The notes: generated by a model from the sequence alone, not told the origin. A stretch of 64,000 nucleotides of DNA from Escherichia coli (GCA_002099625.1 GCA_002099625.1_4857.1), one strand, 5' to 3'. Positions 9,983 to 63,810 are shown, counted from the first letter of the stretch. Made by a program: numbers and translations.

Positions 9983-10020
9983 CCTACCTCCCCGAAGGGA
10001 GGTAGGTACCTTTTATTTAT
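9983..10020. terminator. bidirectional rho-independent terminator at convergence of plus operon and minus-strand gene
   Basis: CCTACCTCCC-CGAA-GGGAGGTAGG hairpin with T-rich runs on both sides (TACCTTTTATTTATTTC on plus; CTTTATTTTCTTTG on minus). Confidence 0.55.
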
Positions 10021-10046
10021 TTCTTAGAAACTACTAAGTTGTTTTG

Positions 10047-10574
10047 TTAAACGAATCCGTCCAGTTCACCGTTGGTGGTGCTCAGGTCAGTTTTAACGAC
10101 TGGCTGCGTTACAGTATAAACTGCAAGGCTGGCAGGCTGGTATTTAATGTGGCCTTCTTTCACCTTAACAGTGATGATTTTCTCACCACTGTCGCCGTCC
10201 TCGCGTGTAATGGTGAGTTCAGACAATGCAAACGCATCTTCCGTTTTACCGGCAGCAATTAGATCTGCGTTGACAAAAGCAAGCACTTCTTCATCGGTAT
10301 CCCATTCTGCCTGGTCAGCGGTCACTGCTTTCGCACCGATAATGTTCAATGAATTGAGGCGGGTATAATGCAGCTCTTTCTCGCCAGTAAAGTTAGCGGA
10401 TTCCGCGGTGGCAGTGATGGTGAGTTTGGAGTTGCGAGTGTCTCCAGAATCTGCTGGTGAATAGTCGGCAACAGCGCCGAATGTAACGTCAGCAGAAGTT
10501 AACGGACTAGACAGTCCGCTGTTTGCAGCATTAAACAGCGCAACGAGTTGGTCTTTTGCAGAGATGACTGCCAT
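10047..10574 (-). CDS. small fibre-family protein carrying the conserved C-terminal TNGELDGF motif
   Basis: 175 aa, ATG start; C-terminus KTDLSTTNGELDGFV matches C-termini of the three 470-498-aa cassette proteins. Confidence 0.55.
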   Translation of the reverse strand: MAVISAKDQLVALFNAANSGLSSPLTSADVTFGAVADYSPADSGDTRNSKLTITATAESANFTGEKELHYTRLNSLNIIGAKAVTADQAEWDTDEEVLAFVNADLIAAGKTEDAFALSELTITREDGDSGEKIITVKVKEGHIKYQPASLAVYTVTQPVVKTDLSTTNGELDGFV

Positions 10575-10697
10575 GGTTGTTTCCTTATAGTAGGTTTGTG
10601 GTGCATACTAAATCATTCTAAAAAATACATAGTGGGCTTAATATGACAGTAAAGTTGGCTGTTAAACAAGAAATTTTTTACCACTGAAAGGTACTCT

Positions 10698-11189
10698 ATG
10701 AAACGTCTATTTATCGTATTCGCGATTATAAACCTGTTGGCCGGTTGTGTTCAGTCGCCAAGCAACATAGGACAATTTAGCGCCACACCAGTAAAGAATC
10801 ACGACTTGGTGATTTATACATGCACAGGGACGCAGGAGAAGTTTATAGACTACCGTCCGGTTCTGGACAATCTACAGATGATGCCGCGGTCAGTAACAGT
10901 AATGGATGTGGGTGCAAACTGGGTAGCAACGTGGGACGGTGGCAAACTTGAGTCACCGATGATGTTTAAAGATGTGGTTGGCAAAATCGACGGGAATGTT
11001 AACACCACCACGGGCGAGCGTTATTACCGTATTAATAAAACAGCAAACGATAGCCCAACTTATTCTTTTTCGGATGTGAACCCACATACCGGGGAAGGTA
11101 AAGGGATGACATTCTTTCGCTGCAGCGCCGGCTTTATCGACGAAGTTCCTACGCCGATTATGATTGTTCCGTTAGAAGAAAATAAATAA
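10698..11189 (+). CDS. putative lipoprotein
   Basis: 163 aa; N-terminus MKRLFIVFAIINLLAGC = signal peptide with lipobox (LLAGC); lies in the lysis region. Confidence 0.65.
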   Translation: MKRLFIVFAIINLLAGCVQSPSNIGQFSATPVKNHDLVIYTCTGTQEKFIDYRPVLDNLQMMPRSVTVMDVGANWVATWDGGKLESPMMFKDVVGKIDGNVNTTTGERYYRINKTANDSPTYSFSDVNPHTGEGKGMTFFRCSAGFIDEVPTPIMIVPLEENK

Positions 11190-11195
11190 TGCTTA

Positions 11196-11235
11196 CCCAC
11201 TCCCGTAAGGGGAGTGGGTATGGGCTTTATTTACC
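11196..11235 (+). terminator. rho-independent terminator after lipoprotein gene
   Basis: CCCACTCCC-GTAA-GGGGAGTGGG hairpin followed by TATGGGCTTTATTT. Confidence 0.5.
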
Positions 11236-11314
11236 CTCTAAAACGCTCTGTAACGCTCTCTAAACGCATTAAACGTCTTGGATGATAAATGATATTACTT
11301 TTGATTAAAGTGGC

Positions 11315-11830
11315 TTAGATTTTAACTAGCTTGCTCCAATCGATGGGTTGTTGTTTAACCACTTTAACGGTACCACGTGTCGGTGACCAGAAAGTGATAT
11401 CAGGCTGGTTGCGTACGTCAACATGCAGCCAGGTAATATCGCACTCGATAAAGTGAATAAACGGAAACTCGTTAGGGTTCGCGGCAATATAGTCGTGTAC
11501 TTTCTGCAACGGAGTATCAAGCATTGTTGCATCAAACGCATTGCCGAATTTATGCATACTGCCTGATTCCGCGTACAGTTTGTTTGCACGAGTTTGCCAA
11601 TCGCCACCCTTTGGTTTCTCTTGATTAATAAAGAACTGCAGGGTACGCAGACTACGCTGTTGCTGGGAACTGGTTAAAATCACCATCCGCCCAAAACGAT
11701 TACGAATCTGTTGGAGCGAGATTAGCAGTAACGGATTAAGGAAACGAATAGCACCTTCACCGTATTTCGCGATGTACTCCTGCGGCATCAACTCTTTTAA
11801 CGCGAAGTTGGCAGGATTCGGATGAAACAT
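11315..11830 (-). CDS. peptidase M15-like peptidoglycan hydrolase (putative L-alanyl-D-glutamate or D-Ala-D-Ala peptidase)
   Basis: 171 aa; GGAG RBS; motif SMHKFGNAFDA matches the SxHxxGxAxD zinc-binding signature of the VanY/M15 family; downstream WLHVDV supplies a candidate third ligand. Confidence 0.7.
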   Translation of the reverse strand: MFHPNPANFALKELMPQEYIAKYGEGAIRFLNPLLLISLQQIRNRFGRMVILTSSQQQRSLRTLQFFINQEKPKGGDWQTRANKLYAESGSMHKFGNAFDATMLDTPLQKVHDYIAANPNEFPFIHFIECDITWLHVDVRNQPDITFWSPTRGTVKVVKQQPIDWSKLVKI

Positions 11831-11839
11831 TTTCTCTCC

Positions 11840-62116: not shown

Positions 62117-62126
62117 CCCCTGCTCC

Positions 62127-62399
62127 TTACATCCGCGTCAAAGTATAGTAGTAGTTGCGATGTGGCCATCGAACACACAAGGCAAATATCTCTCCCGTAT
62201 CCGGCGTGGTGTAAACTGTCTGAATTGGGTCATTTTCTTGTGGTGCGACTTTCGAATCAAAACCGTGATGTTCCAGGTAATCGAAGAACTCATCTTCAGT
62301 GCCTGGGAACAGACGAAGGCTGGTCACCTTCTTAATCGGTTTTGACGGCGTAGGGAAGAATGCTTCCCACAAACGACGAGCTAAACTGGTAGTTTGCAT
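62127..62399 (-). CDS. hypothetical protein
   Basis: 90-aa ORF. Confidence 0.45.
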   Translation of the reverse strand: MQTTSLARRLWEAFFPTPSKPIKKVTSLRLFPGTEDEFFDYLEHHGFDSKVAPQENDPIQTVYTTPDTGEIFALCVRWPHRNYYYTLTRM

Positions 62400-62429
62400 A
62401 ATAGCGACCTCTGATTAAAGGCAACGTGG

Positions 62430-63029
62430 TCATAATAAGCACAAGCTCTCAAGCCACAGATGTCCTTCAAGCGCATGGTGGTAACAAGGAATACCACACT
62501 GCTTAGCGTATTTCACGCCCATGGCAGTACCGCCGGTCGGATTACCTTGTTTATCTAAAGGCGCAGAGTAATAAACTGCGTCTACAGGCGTTGCTAAATC
62601 ATCGCCCATAATTATATTCAGATTACGGCCATGAAGCGCCCAGGCGAACTCCTGGAGCTTTTCTGGCGCGGGATGAAGCTTACCTACTATCTCACGATAG
62701 CGGTCATCCTGAGGGATTACACGGAACTCTACGTTGGGATTCTGTTTCTTGAGCCAGAGCTTTTTCTCATCGGGTAGGTAACAAATGAACTCATCATCCC
62801 ACACCACTTTCTTGCCGGTATCTTGGTCGATTGTATTCGCCCACTGTCGGGCAAATCGGAATTGCAATTGGTCTGGACCACACCAGCAGCCGCCAGAAGA
62901 AAAATGAATCGTGTAATCCTTGGCGTGCAGCGCATTAAACCCACGTAACAATCGCATGTACATTTCAGACATGGTATCTTCATCAGTCTTCCGAGAACCG
63001 ATTACCGCAATTTTATAAATCTTTTTCAT
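62430..63029 (-). CDS. hypothetical protein, possible Rossmann-fold (DprA/SLOG-like) nucleotide-binding protein
   Basis: 199 aa; N-terminal KIAVIGSR plus FSSGG glycine motif; assignment tentative. Confidence 0.4.
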   Translation of the reverse strand: MKKIYKIAVIGSRKTDEDTMSEMYMRLLRGFNALHAKDYTIHFSSGGCWCGPDQLQFRFARQWANTIDQDTGKKVVWDDEFICYLPDEKKLWLKKQNPNVEFRVIPQDDRYREIVGKLHPAPEKLQEFAWALHGRNLNIIMGDDLATPVDAVYYSAPLDKQGNPTGGTAMGVKYAKQCGIPCYHHALEGHLWLESLCLL

Positions 63030-63061
63030 GGACTTACCTCCTATACGGAGTGGACGATTCG

Positions 63062-63106
63062 TAAGAAAAAAATAAATACCTACCCTCGCTAAACGGGCGA
63101 GGGTAG
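63062..63106 (-). terminator. rho-independent terminator
   Basis: CTACCCTCGC / GCGAGGGTAG inverted repeat; minus-strand T-run TATTTATTTTTTTTCTTAC. Confidence 0.55.
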
Positions 63107-63110
63107 TGTC

Positions 63111-63761
63111 TTAAACAAACACACGATAACGAAAACCGCTAAGCTTCGAGATAGTCACTTCTTCTAACAGCTTACGCCCCCAGAAACCAGCCAAGTCGTA
63201 TTCCAGACCAGGCAGCGTTGTCTTGGTTAAGTCTTGGCCGATATGGTACGGTAGCGTAATACGTGTGCGCGATTCGTAAACAAACGATTCACATTCATAG
63301 ACGAGGATGTATCGATCGGTCAGGATGTCGTACTCTACGTGGCATTGCGCGGGGTTTTCCCACGCCTTACTTACAACGATGCCACGTTCTGCACACGCCG
63401 ATTCAAAACTGGCCATTGCAGGTTCAGACCATACGCGCAAATCGGCCGGTTTACCTTTCGACAAATCAAACCACGTGAGATGATCAGGTCCCAATGTGAT
63501 TATATCATTTAAGCTCAATTTGCGGTAACGCACAACCACATAGTCATCTGGCTTACTCTTATTAGTCAGCAAAGCACTTACACGACCGTCCGGTTCCGGT
63601 GGACCATAACTCTCCACACGGATACGTTCTGTGTTCAGGGGCGTATAAACGGTTTCAGCATTAAAAGCATTGACTAAATCGAGCAAGGTTTGACTATGAT
63701 GGTGGTTAAAGTCAATAACAAAAGACATGCCTCGCTCCTGGTATTTGATTAAGGGGGTCAT
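63111..63761 (-). CDS. hypothetical protein
   Basis: 216-aa ORF. Confidence 0.5.
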   Translation of the reverse strand: MTPLIKYQERGMSFVIDFNHHHSQTLLDLVNAFNAETVYTPLNTERIRVESYGPPEPDGRVSALLTNKSKPDDYVVVRYRKLSLNDIITLGPDHLTWFDLSKGKPADLRVWSEPAMASFESACAERGIVVSKAWENPAQCHVEYDILTDRYILVYECESFVYESRTRITLPYHIGQDLTKTTLPGLEYDLAGFWGRKLLEEVTISKLSGFRYRVFV

Positions 63762-63790
63762 AATACTTCACAGGAAAATAATAAACAGTA

Positions 63791-63810
63791 TAGGGGCCGA
63801 AGCCCCTATA
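63791..63810 (-). terminator. terminator-like hairpin (CUUCGG loop)
   Basis: ATAGGGGC-CGAA-GCCCCTAT hairpin with a T-rich minus-strand tract downstream. Confidence 0.4.

What the first reader, a model, noticed from the sequence alone, without database searches (positions are those of the whole stretch)
9983..63810. Terminators use CUUCGG-type tetraloop hairpins almost throughout
At least 12 intergenic hairpins carry CGAA as the loop on the plus strand, which is UUCG closed by C-G in minus-strand transcripts (for example CCCTACTCC-CGAA-GGAGTAGGG at 34865-34886), each followed by a T-run. The C(UUCG)G loop is a hyperstable RNA tetraloop long known from phage T4 transcripts. Near-exclusive use here may hint at T4-like RNA biology or selection for nuclease-resistant 3' ends.
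Basis: partly seen in the sequence, partly recalled or inferred. Interest (0 to 1): 0.4.

Follow-up and report, generated by a model that had tools for sequence, protein, structure and literature searches.

The report
UUCG-capped terminator hairpins in jumbo phage
Twelve gene-end hairpins in this SPN3US-like giant phage carry the very stable C(UUCG)G loop on the transcribed strand, which is real and far above chance but is an ordinary, long-known style of phage transcription terminator rather than a sign of special T4-like RNA biology.

Summary
The window holds exactly 12 hairpins whose loop is CGAA on the + strand, which is C(UUCG)G in minus-strand transcripts. Dinucleotide shuffles predict 0.075. 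All 12 lie in intergenic DNA just after a gene end, and 10 of them have a U-rich tail. The window comes from an SPN3US-like jumbo phage (Seoulvirus, distantly phiKZ-like, encoding its own multisubunit RNA polymerases). In SPN3US, sites that follow a gene on one side only have UUCG on the sense strand 26 times and CGAA once, so selection acts on the RNA and not on a DNA palindrome. A divergent Erwinia relative often keeps UUCG at the same gene ends while the stem sequence is replaced.

"Near-exclusive" is overstated. UUCG caps about 40-65% of terminator-like hairpins in the window and 36-47% genome-wide in SPN3US. The others mostly have different C-G-closed tetraloops. The same census gives similar shares in phiKZ (26-53%) and T4 (about 29%), and 0 of 21 in a 150-kb E. 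coli sample. This is therefore the familiar phage habit of capping short intrinsic terminators with a hyperstable tetraloop, and it does not indicate T4 ancestry. Termination and 3'-end protection remain inferred, because no 3'-end data exist for this clade. Interest is low.

The parts
9983..10006 (-). C(UUCG)G hairpin, 10 bp, between convergent genes (homologues of SPN3US gp106 and gp105). T-rich tails on both strands, so it is a likely bidirectional terminator. The loop reads UUCG only in the minus-strand transcript.
   Evidence: -25.7 kcal/mol, z -4.9. The loop is flipped in SPN3US.
16997..17022 (-). C(UUCG)G hairpin, 11 bp, tail CUUUUUUU, between paralogous virion structural protein genes (SPN3US gp113/gp112).
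   Evidence: SPN3US has UGAA on identical arms, and about 30 other relatives also differ from the window by 3-4 of 101 nt at this site.
27319..27336 (-). C(UUCG)G hairpin, 7 bp, 5 nt after the stop codon, with a weak U tail (AUCUUUUGG). Possibly a partial terminator or a 3' stabiliser between structural genes (gp122/gp121).
   Evidence: The Asesino orthologue has a different stem with a UGCG loop.
33548..33569 (-). C(UUCG)G hairpin, tail CUUUUUUGUUUC, after the gp129 homologue.
   Evidence: UUCG is retained in Asesino.
34862..34889 (-).
   Evidence: z -5.6.
39715..39748 (-). C(UUCG)G hairpin, 15 pairs with G-U, 2 nt after the stop codon of the 1005-aa tail protein gene, tail UUUAUUUUAUUU.
   Evidence: z -6.6. 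The Asesino orthologue has an unrelated stem and the same UUCG loop.
49814..49839 (-). C(UUCG)G hairpin, 11 bp, 6 nt after the stop codon, tail UUCUUUUUAUUU.
55231..55256 (-). C(UUCG)G hairpin, 11 bp, 2 nt after the stop codon, tail UUUUUGUCUUUU.
56839..56862 (-). C(UUCG)G hairpin, 10 bp, after the thymidylate kinase homologue, tail UAUUGCCUUUUU, followed by a promoter-like repeat.
   Evidence: Both stem and loop are conserved in Asesino.
57569..57594 (-). C(UUCG)G hairpin, 9-11 pairs, tail UUAUUUUUUUUC.
   Evidence: The Asesino orthologue has an unrelated stem and the same UUCG loop.
58495..58516 (-). C(UUCG)G hairpin, 9 bp, 5 nt after the stop codon, with no U tract (CGACUCUAUUGU), followed by a promoter-like repeat. 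A doubtful terminator; it may act as a 3'-end barrier.
63788..63811 (-). C(UUCG)G hairpin, 10 bp, tail UGUUUAUUAUUU, after the gp176 homologue.
   Evidence: The Asesino orthologue has a GCAA loop on a different stem.
11192..11222 (-). Non-UUCG terminator-like hairpin, C(CUUAC)G, 13 bp, with T-rich tails on both strands.
13396..13421 (-). Non-UUCG terminator-like hairpin, C(UGUG)G, upstream of the endolysin homologue. SPN3US has CACG on the same arms.
29941..29972 (-). Non-UUCG terminator-like hairpin, G(AAAU)C, 14 bp.
45215..45258 (-). Non-UUCG terminator-like hairpin with an 8-nt loop (GAUCAUAU) and 18 pairs. The stem is conserved in Asesino.
50889..50914 (-). Non-UUCG terminator-like hairpin, C(CACG)G (YNMG class). 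Asesino has UACG on the same stem.
63080..63106 (-). Non-UUCG terminator-like hairpin with a 7-nt loop. The Asesino orthologous site has a UUCG hairpin instead.

Best explanation
The 12 hairpins are intrinsic (factor-independent) terminators or 3'-end hairpins. They mark the ends of transcription units in an SPN3US-like jumbo phage. Each is a short G+C-rich stem closed by C-G and capped with the hyperstable UUCG tetraloop, and most are followed directly by a U-rich tract. The inferred mechanism is as follows. As the polymerase transcribes the U tract, the stem nucleates quickly on the pre-organised C(UUCG)G cap and invades the weak rU:dA hybrid, which releases the transcript. The same compact hairpin then blocks 3'-to-5' exonucleases. 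The UUCG cap gives the most stability and folding speed per nucleotide, which suits a densely packed genome whose gene ends lie only 2-40 nt from the hairpin. The polymerases involved are presumably the phage's own virion and non-virion multisubunit enzymes, as in phiKZ. What is shown: the structures, their enrichment, their position at gene ends, their strand specificity, and persistence of the loop despite stem turnover. What is inferred: that transcripts end there, which polymerase is involved, and whether the selected benefit is termination efficiency, RNA stability or both.
For: Enrichment is 12 observed against 0.075 expected. All 12 are intergenic and lie 2-133 nt after a same-strand stop codon, or between convergent genes (with the SPN3US annotation). 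Ten of 12 have U-rich tails. All 12 have stable minimum-energy hairpins. Strand specificity: SPN3US has 26 sense-UUCG sites and 1 sense-CGAA site in one-directional gene contexts, and in the window all 11 hairpins in a one-directional context read UUCG in the sense strand. Promoter-like repeats begin 10-70 nt downstream of four of the 12 hairpins (34862, 39715, 56839, 58495), consistent with unit boundaries. At orthologous gene ends in Erwinia phage Asesino (about 72% nucleotide identity), UUCG is kept on replaced or altered stems at 39715, 57569 and 58495, UGCG appears at 27319, and UUCG is gained at 63080. In phiKZ, 61 terminator regions found by ONT-cappable-seq and predicted by ARNold to be intrinsic share a stem-loop plus TTAT motif (PMC10914365), and my census of phiKZ DNA finds UUCG to be the commonest loop there too. 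SPN3US encodes multiple split RNA polymerase beta/beta' subunits (PMC7598289). A UUCG loop, combined with replacement of some G-U pairs by G-C, raised termination efficiency of an engineered T7 terminator by 40% in vitro (PMC9157156, citing Mairhofer 2015).
Against: There are no transcript 3'-end data for any SPN3US-like phage in the searched literature. Two of the 12 lack a proper U tract (27319, 58495). Termination behaviour of jumbo-phage RNA polymerases at such hairpins has not been characterised in the papers I read. About half of the phage's terminator-like hairpins have other loops, so UUCG is preferred but not required.
Confidence: 0.85

Rival explanations
1. The hairpins mainly act as 3' stabilisers or exonuclease barriers. 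Transcripts end elsewhere and are trimmed back to the hairpin, or the hairpin protects upstream mRNA segments after processing. Termination itself is secondary.
For: Two hairpins have no usable U tract (27319, 58495). Some SPN3US UUCG hairpins also lack one (2156, 234327). C(UUCG)G is among the most thermostable caps (PMC2811024, listed). SPN3US is annotated with a 3'-5' exoribonuclease and a ribonuclease (gp060, gp059).
Against: Ten of 12 have a U-rich tract starting 0-3 nt after the stem, which a pure stabiliser does not need. Promoter-like elements follow several of them. The two roles are not exclusive, so this is more a difference of emphasis than a true alternative.
Confidence: 0.1
2. 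They are DNA-level elements: dispersed palindromes such as REP/MITE-like repeats, cruciform or recombination hotspots, or T4-type mobile regulatory cassettes. Under this view the loop sequence is incidental or inherited by copying.
For: Identical stems recur at non-orthologous sites (CCCTCTTACC three times, CCCACTC four times in SPN3US). Loops flip between close relatives, as expected for inverted repeats. T4-type phages carry mobile promoter/stem-loop cassettes (PMC2839356, listed; I saw only its title and abstract).
Against: Loop orientation follows the direction of transcription 26 to 1, which a DNA palindrome would not do. The T-rich tract is on the downstream side only, except at convergent genes. 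Most stems are unrelated to each other. Copies with identical stems have unrelated flanks (30-37% identity), so no larger element is moving. The window has no Rfam family hit.
Confidence: 0.03
3. The UUCG usage reflects specifically T4-like RNA biology, meaning shared ancestry or a T4-type factor that recognises CUUCGG hairpins.
For: T4 also uses C(UUCG)G at gene ends (4 of 14 terminator-like hairpins in 100 kb).
Against: The genome is SPN3US-like and matches no T4-type record. This points to convergent use of a thermodynamically favoured motif.
Confidence: 0.02

Closest known systems
C(UUCG)G-capped intrinsic terminators of phage T4 and E. coli (from my own knowledge: Tuerk et al. 1988 PNAS; d'Aubenton Carafa et al. 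1990 J Mol Biol)
   Same: The loop and C-G closing pair are the same. The position after gene ends is the same, and a U-rich tail follows. The share of UUCG among terminator-like hairpins in T4 (4/14) does not differ statistically from SPN3US (28/77, p=0.76).
   Different: T4 relies on the host RNA polymerase, whereas this phage clade encodes its own multisubunit polymerases. T4 stems are shorter and more A+T-rich and lack the C-rich 5' arm tendency. A 150-kb E. coli sample gave 0/21 UUCG with mixed loop lengths, so the phage's terminators are much more uniform than the host's.
Conserved intrinsic-terminator motif of phiKZ and 201phi2-1 (BCCYCCCC-HWWD-GGGRRGG-BYTTAT; PMC10914365, PMC11512511)
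   Same: It belongs to a jumbo phage with its own RNA polymerases. It is a short stem with a C-G-closed tetraloop. The 5' arm tends to be C-rich and the 3' arm G-rich, and tails are U-rich, often containing UUAU. In my census UUCG is also the commonest loop in phiKZ (11/43 loose, 9/17 strict). From memory, the phiKZ genome paper (PMID 11916376, not held) already stated that most phiKZ terminators carry UUCG loops.
   Different: The arm sequences here do not match the phiKZ consensus. Only one window hairpin has CYYCC/GGRRG arms next to the loop. Stems are longer (7-15 bp) and more varied, and the genome has 48% G+C against 37%.
UNCG/YNMG hyperstable tetraloop family (cUUCGg NMR structure, PMC2811024; YNMG loops, PMC2346598)
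   Same: All 12 loops have the UUCG sequence and a C-G closing pair. Related variants (CACG, UACG, UGCG, UCCG) occur at other sites or at orthologous sites.
   Different: Nothing differs at the sequence level. The fold itself was not determined here.

Membership tests
Intrinsic (factor-independent) transcription terminator | Stable G+C-rich RNA stem-loop | tested here: met
   All 12 fold as hairpins at -15.4 to -25.7 kcal/mol with z-scores of -2.3 to -6.6.
Intrinsic (factor-independent) transcription terminator | U-rich tract immediately 3' of the stem | tested here: met
   Ten of 12 have at least 6 U in the first 10 nt, starting 0-3 nt after the stem. The tail is weak at 27319 and absent at 58495.
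Intrinsic (factor-independent) transcription terminator | Located downstream of a gene end, in the sense orientation | tested here: met
   Eleven lie after same-strand stop codons and one lies between convergent genes. In SPN3US the count is 26 sense to 1 antisense.
Intrinsic (factor-independent) transcription terminator | Transcripts actually end there, without a factor | not testable with these tools
   No 3'-end mapping exists for SPN3US-like phages in the searched literature. The supplementary tables of the phiKZ and 201phi2-1 studies are not held.
C(UUCG)G / UNCG hyperstable tetraloop | Four-nucleotide loop UUCG (UNCG) | tested here: met
   12 of 12 on the minus strand.
C(UUCG)G / UNCG hyperstable tetraloop | C-G closing base pair | tested here: met
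   12 of 12.
C(UUCG)G / UNCG hyperstable tetraloop | Characteristic Z-turn fold and extra thermal stability | not testable with these tools
   Assumed from the solved cUUCGg structure (PMC2811024, listed).
phiKZ-type conserved terminator motif (PMC10914365) | Arms CCYCCCC / GGGRRGG flanking the loop | tested here: not met
   A relaxed search for CYYCC-N4-GGRRG finds one site in the window (9983) and three in all of SPN3US, against nine in 150 kb of phiKZ.
phiKZ-type conserved terminator motif (PMC10914365) | Loop HWWD | tested here: not met
   UUCG has C at loop position 3. However, phiKZ itself has many UUCG loops in my census.
phiKZ-type conserved terminator motif (PMC10914365) | TTAT immediately after the stem | tested here: inconclusive
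   TTAT occurs in the 12-nt tail of 9 of the 18 gene-strand terminator-like hairpins. No chance expectation was computed for such T-rich tails.
Dispersed palindromic repeat or mobile regulatory cassette (REP/MITE-like, T4 PeSL-like) | Near-identical copies, including flanks, at many sites | tested here: not met
   Most stems are unrelated. The few identical stems have unrelated flanks (30-37% identity).
Dispersed palindromic repeat or mobile regulatory cassette (REP/MITE-like, T4 PeSL-like) | Orientation independent of transcription | tested here: not met
   Orientation follows the gene strand 26 to 1.

The most novel reading that the evidence does not exclude
The terminator style shared by phiKZ, SPN3US and Erwinia jumbo phages (short stem, C-G-closed UNCG-type tetraloop, a tendency to a C-rich 5' arm and G-rich 3' arm, and a UUUAU-type tail) may reflect a specific requirement of their unusual split, alpha-less multisubunit RNA polymerases. 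Loop inversion at terminators between convergent genes, which is polymorphic among close relatives, may switch which of the two transcripts gets the efficient UUCG cap.
Probability: 0.1. Interest if true: 0.45.

Novelty: new member of a known kind. Interest (0 to 1): 0.15.

Why it matters
It matters little beyond annotation. The hairpins give a ready map of likely transcription-unit ends for SPN3US-like phages, whose public records annotate no terminators and for which I found no transcriptome data. They are also compact candidate terminator parts. The natural loop variants on identical stems are convenient test pairs for asking how much the UUCG cap contributes to termination or RNA stability with jumbo-phage RNA polymerases. 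These variants are UUCG vs CGAA at 9983, UUCG vs UGAA at 16997, and UGUG vs CACG at 13396.

Tried and rejected
1. The Rfam gathering scan of the whole window gave no hits, as expected because generic terminators are not Rfam families.

2. I looked for published descriptions of SPN3US terminators or transcriptomes and found none. Full-text searches combining UUCG with phiKZ, terminators or phage returned no paper that discusses both.

3. The phiKZ genome paper (PMID 11916376) is not held. My recollection that it reports UUCG loops is therefore marked as memory, and I tested phiKZ DNA directly instead.

4. I hoped to match experimentally mapped phiKZ and 201phi2-1 3' ends to UUCG hairpins, but no supplementary tables are held.

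5. A viral-contig scan with the 9983 stem returned too few related loci to decide which loop orientation is ancestral. Short-query identity bands were used instead.

6. The C-rich 5' arm / G-rich 3' arm asymmetry is clear in pooled base composition. Per hairpin it is only modest: significant in the window and phiKZ, not in the loose SPN3US set. I do not build on it.

7. I rejected a DNA-palindrome or mobile-element reading (orientation bias, unrelated flanks) and a T4-kinship reading (taxonomy, and the same loop share in phiKZ).

8. My crude ORF-based gene caller mis-assigns some window sites (one search shows 3 'no gene end'). For those I used the SPN3US annotation mapped by flanking homology.

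
Full report
**What the window is.** A megablast of window 30000-38000 matches SPN3US-like jumbo phages: Escherichia phages Lh1B and EC001 and Salmonella phage SPN3US at 97-98% identity, with Erwinia jumbo phages more distant. SPN3US (genus Seoulvirus) is annotated with many split 'RNA polymerase beta subunit' genes. A review lists it among the jumbo phages that encode a virion and a non-virion multisubunit RNA polymerase (PMC7598289). From about position 10 kb onward nearly all genes lie on the minus strand. A CGAA loop on the + strand is therefore UUCG in the mRNA.

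**Checking the observation.** The quoted example is exact. A scan for perfect-stem tetraloop hairpins found CGAA 10 times among 95 hairpins, and the runner-up loop 3 times. Allowing G-U pairs and one mismatch gives 12 C(UUCG)G hairpins on the minus strand, at 9983, 16997, 27319, 33548, 34862, 39715, 49814, 55231, 56839, 57569, 58495 and 63788. In 200 dinucleotide-preserving shuffles the expectation is 0.075 (maximum 2), and no loop of any sequence exceeded 5 copies. All 12 adopt the hairpin as their minimum-energy RNA fold, at -15.4 to -25.7 kcal/mol with z-scores of -2.3 to -6.6. Ten have a U-rich tract starting within 3 nt of the stem. Site 27319 has a weak tract and 58495 has none. The folding program rewards C(UUCG)G, so I repeated the census using stem length, G-C pair count and tail only. 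UUCG remained by far the commonest loop (window 10 of 33).

**Is use 'near-exclusive'?** No. I built a uniform census: hairpin at or below -8 kcal/mol, at least 5 T in 9 nt after the stem, and no more than 150 nt downstream of a same-strand ORF stop. This finds 22 terminator-like hairpins in the window, 9 of them UUCG. Three further UUCG sites miss one filter. At least six gene-strand terminator-like hairpins carry other loops: C(CUUAC)G, C(UGUG)G, G(AAAU)C, an 8-nt loop, C(CACG)G and a 7-nt loop. Across the complete SPN3US genome, assembled, UUCG caps 28 of 77 loose and 25 of 53 strict terminator-like hairpins. Among the strict set, 48 of 53 are closed by C-G and 46 of 53 are tetraloops. UUCG is therefore the dominant loop, at about 40-65% in the window depending on the criterion, but not the only one.

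**RNA-level or DNA-level?** The arms are palindromic, so only the loop and the tail reveal orientation. In SPN3US, hairpins that follow a gene on one side only read UUCG in the sense strand 26 times and CGAA once. Four lie between convergent genes. In the window, the 11 sites with a gene on one side only all read UUCG in the sense strand. A DNA-level palindrome would show no such bias. Most stems are unrelated to each other. Where an identical stem recurs, the flanks are unrelated (30-37% identity). This excludes a dispersed repeat or a larger mobile cassette. A repeated promoter-like element begins 10-70 nt downstream of four of the 12 hairpins (34862, 39715, 56839, 58495), and a fifth copy lies in the next intergenic region downstream of 50889. 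This fits the hairpins marking ends of transcription units.

**Conservation.** I located the orthologous gene ends by flanking protein similarity in Erwinia phage Asesino (Erskinevirus, about 72% nucleotide identity).
- UUCG is kept on replaced or altered stems at 39715, 57569 and 58495, and on similar stems at 33548 and 56839.
- It becomes UGCG on a new stem at 27319.
- It is lost at 49814, 63788 and 34862.
- It is gained at 63080, where the window has a 7-nt loop.
- CACG at 50889 becomes UACG.

Stems therefore turn over while UNCG-type caps keep reappearing. This is the pattern expected for selection on the cap rather than inheritance of a particular sequence.

**Comparison with known systems.** The same census gives the following results.

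| Genome sampled | UUCG, loose set | UUCG, strict set |
|---|---|---|
| Window (64 kb) | 9/22 | 8/19 |
| SPN3US (240 kb) | 28/77 | 25/53 |
| Asesino (50 kb) | 6/19 | 6/15 |
| phiKZ (150 kb) | 11/43 | 9/17 |
| T4 (100 kb) | 4/14 | 1/3 |
| E. coli K-12 (150 kb) | 0/21 | 0/3 |

SPN3US differs from the E. coli sample (Fisher p=6e-4) but not from phiKZ (p=0.31) or T4 (p=0.76). Scanning the viral contig collection for one fixed stem (AAATAGGCCC-N4-GGGCCTATTT) returned more than 120 contigs, most seemingly unrelated to this phage. About 107 of 121 loops on that stem are UACG, UUCG or UCCG or their complements. Capping terminator stems with C(UNCG)G is thus a general phage habit.

Published long-read transcriptomics of phiKZ reports 61 terminator regions, predicted to be intrinsic, that share a stem-loop plus TTAT motif. 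The 201phi2-1 study reports a similar motif (PMC10914365; PMC11512511). The hairpins here share that style but not the phiKZ arm consensus. From memory, CUUCGG hairpins in T4 were described by Tuerk et al. in 1988. UUCG enrichment in E. coli terminators was described by d'Aubenton Carafa et al. in 1990. The phiKZ genome paper of 2002 noted UUCG loops in most of its terminators, but that paper is not held. My direct census of phiKZ DNA agrees with it.

**Mechanism.** The best-supported reading is ordinary intrinsic termination. The hairpin folds in the exit channel while the polymerase sits on a weak rU:dA hybrid. The C(UUCG)G cap supplies fast nucleation and extra stability, so a 7-12 bp stem can work in a very short intergenic space. 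A UUCG loop, together with replacing some G-U pairs by G-C, improved an engineered T7 terminator by 40% in vitro (PMC9157156). The same hairpin would protect the released 3' end from exonucleases. The two sites without a U tract may serve only that role. Which polymerase terminates, and how efficiently, is inferred by analogy with phiKZ. No 3'-end data exist for this clade in the literature I could search.

**Verdict.** 'Near-exclusive' is an overstatement and 'T4-like RNA biology' is not supported. The feature is a new set of instances of a kind known for decades, so interest is low.

Noticed in passing
window 9983-10006, compared with NC_027402 138807-138830: At the terminator between convergent genes the arms are identical in SPN3US but the 4-nt loop is inverted (CGAA vs TTCG on the same strand). 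UUCG therefore goes to the opposite transcript. With a 101-nt query most relatives are 98-99% identical (same orientation as the window). SPN3US, Proteus phage 7 and Lh1B sit at 96.0%, which equals four mismatches. Only SPN3US was verified by sequence.
   Followed up: partly
window 16997-17022 and 13396-13421: On arms identical to SPN3US the window has UUCG where SPN3US has UGAA, and UGUG where SPN3US has CACG. Each pair equals a loop inversion plus one C/T difference at the first loop base. None of about 30 relatives matches the window at 99% or better at either site, so both loop states seem unique to this lineage. The direction of change is unresolved.
   Followed up: partly
window 34801-34829, 39677-39705, 50176-50204, 56752-56780, 58453-58481 (minus strand): There are five copies of an intergenic repeat, which reads TTTCAGATATATATTACYTAGG... 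in the sense strand. Four of them begin 10-70 nt after UUCG hairpins, at 34862, 39715, 56839 and 58495. The fifth, at 50176-50204, lies in the next intergenic region downstream of the CACG hairpin at 50889. The repeat contains TATATTAC, which I recall as the phiKZ early-promoter core. These are likely early promoters for the virion RNA polymerase. Two copies are followed by a small hairpin (GAGAGTTAAC...AACTCT).
   Followed up: no
NC_027402 67345, 94154, 180981 (the window copy is at 56839-56862); also the CCCACTC stems at NC_027402 11460, 92502, 137594, 186746: Identical 10-bp stems with UUCG recur at non-orthologous gene ends, yet their flanks are unrelated (30-37% identity). Chance convergence on 24 identical nucleotides seems unlikely, so short-patch copying between terminators is possible. 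This remains unexplained.
   Followed up: partly
loci L022-L141 (IMG/VR contigs): The stem AAATAGGCCC-N4-GGGCCTATTT (the window 16997 hairpin) occurs in more than 120 viral contigs, most seemingly unrelated to this phage. Nearly all carry UACG, UUCG or UCCG loops or their complements. I did not check whether these contigs are related to each other.
   Followed up: no
window 17000-33500: This region holds a tandem array of paralogous virion structural protein genes (homologues of SPN3US gp113-gp128). It produces many 60-80% identical direct repeats spaced about 3.4 kb apart.
   Followed up: no
window 39751-42768 (minus strand): The 1005-aa tail protein gene shows 66-69% nucleotide identity over parts of its length to tail protein or tail fibre genes of much smaller phages. 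Examples are 84-kb Erwinia phages, 52-kb Salmonella phages and a Hafnia phage. This suggests exchange of a host-recognition module.
   Followed up: no
terminator-like hairpins of the window, SPN3US and phiKZ: The 5' arms tend to be C-rich and the 3' arms G-rich (strict sets: C 43-48% vs G 16-18% in the 5' arm). T4 and the E. coli sample do not show this. Per hairpin the effect is modest: significant in the window and phiKZ, not in the loose SPN3US set.
   Followed up: partly
window 1-9965 (+ strand): The plus-strand gene block has no UUCG hairpin of its own. It has one terminator-like hairpin, U(UAUG)G at 4538-4567, and ends at the shared hairpin at 9983, whose loop reads CGAA in that transcript.
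   Followed up: no
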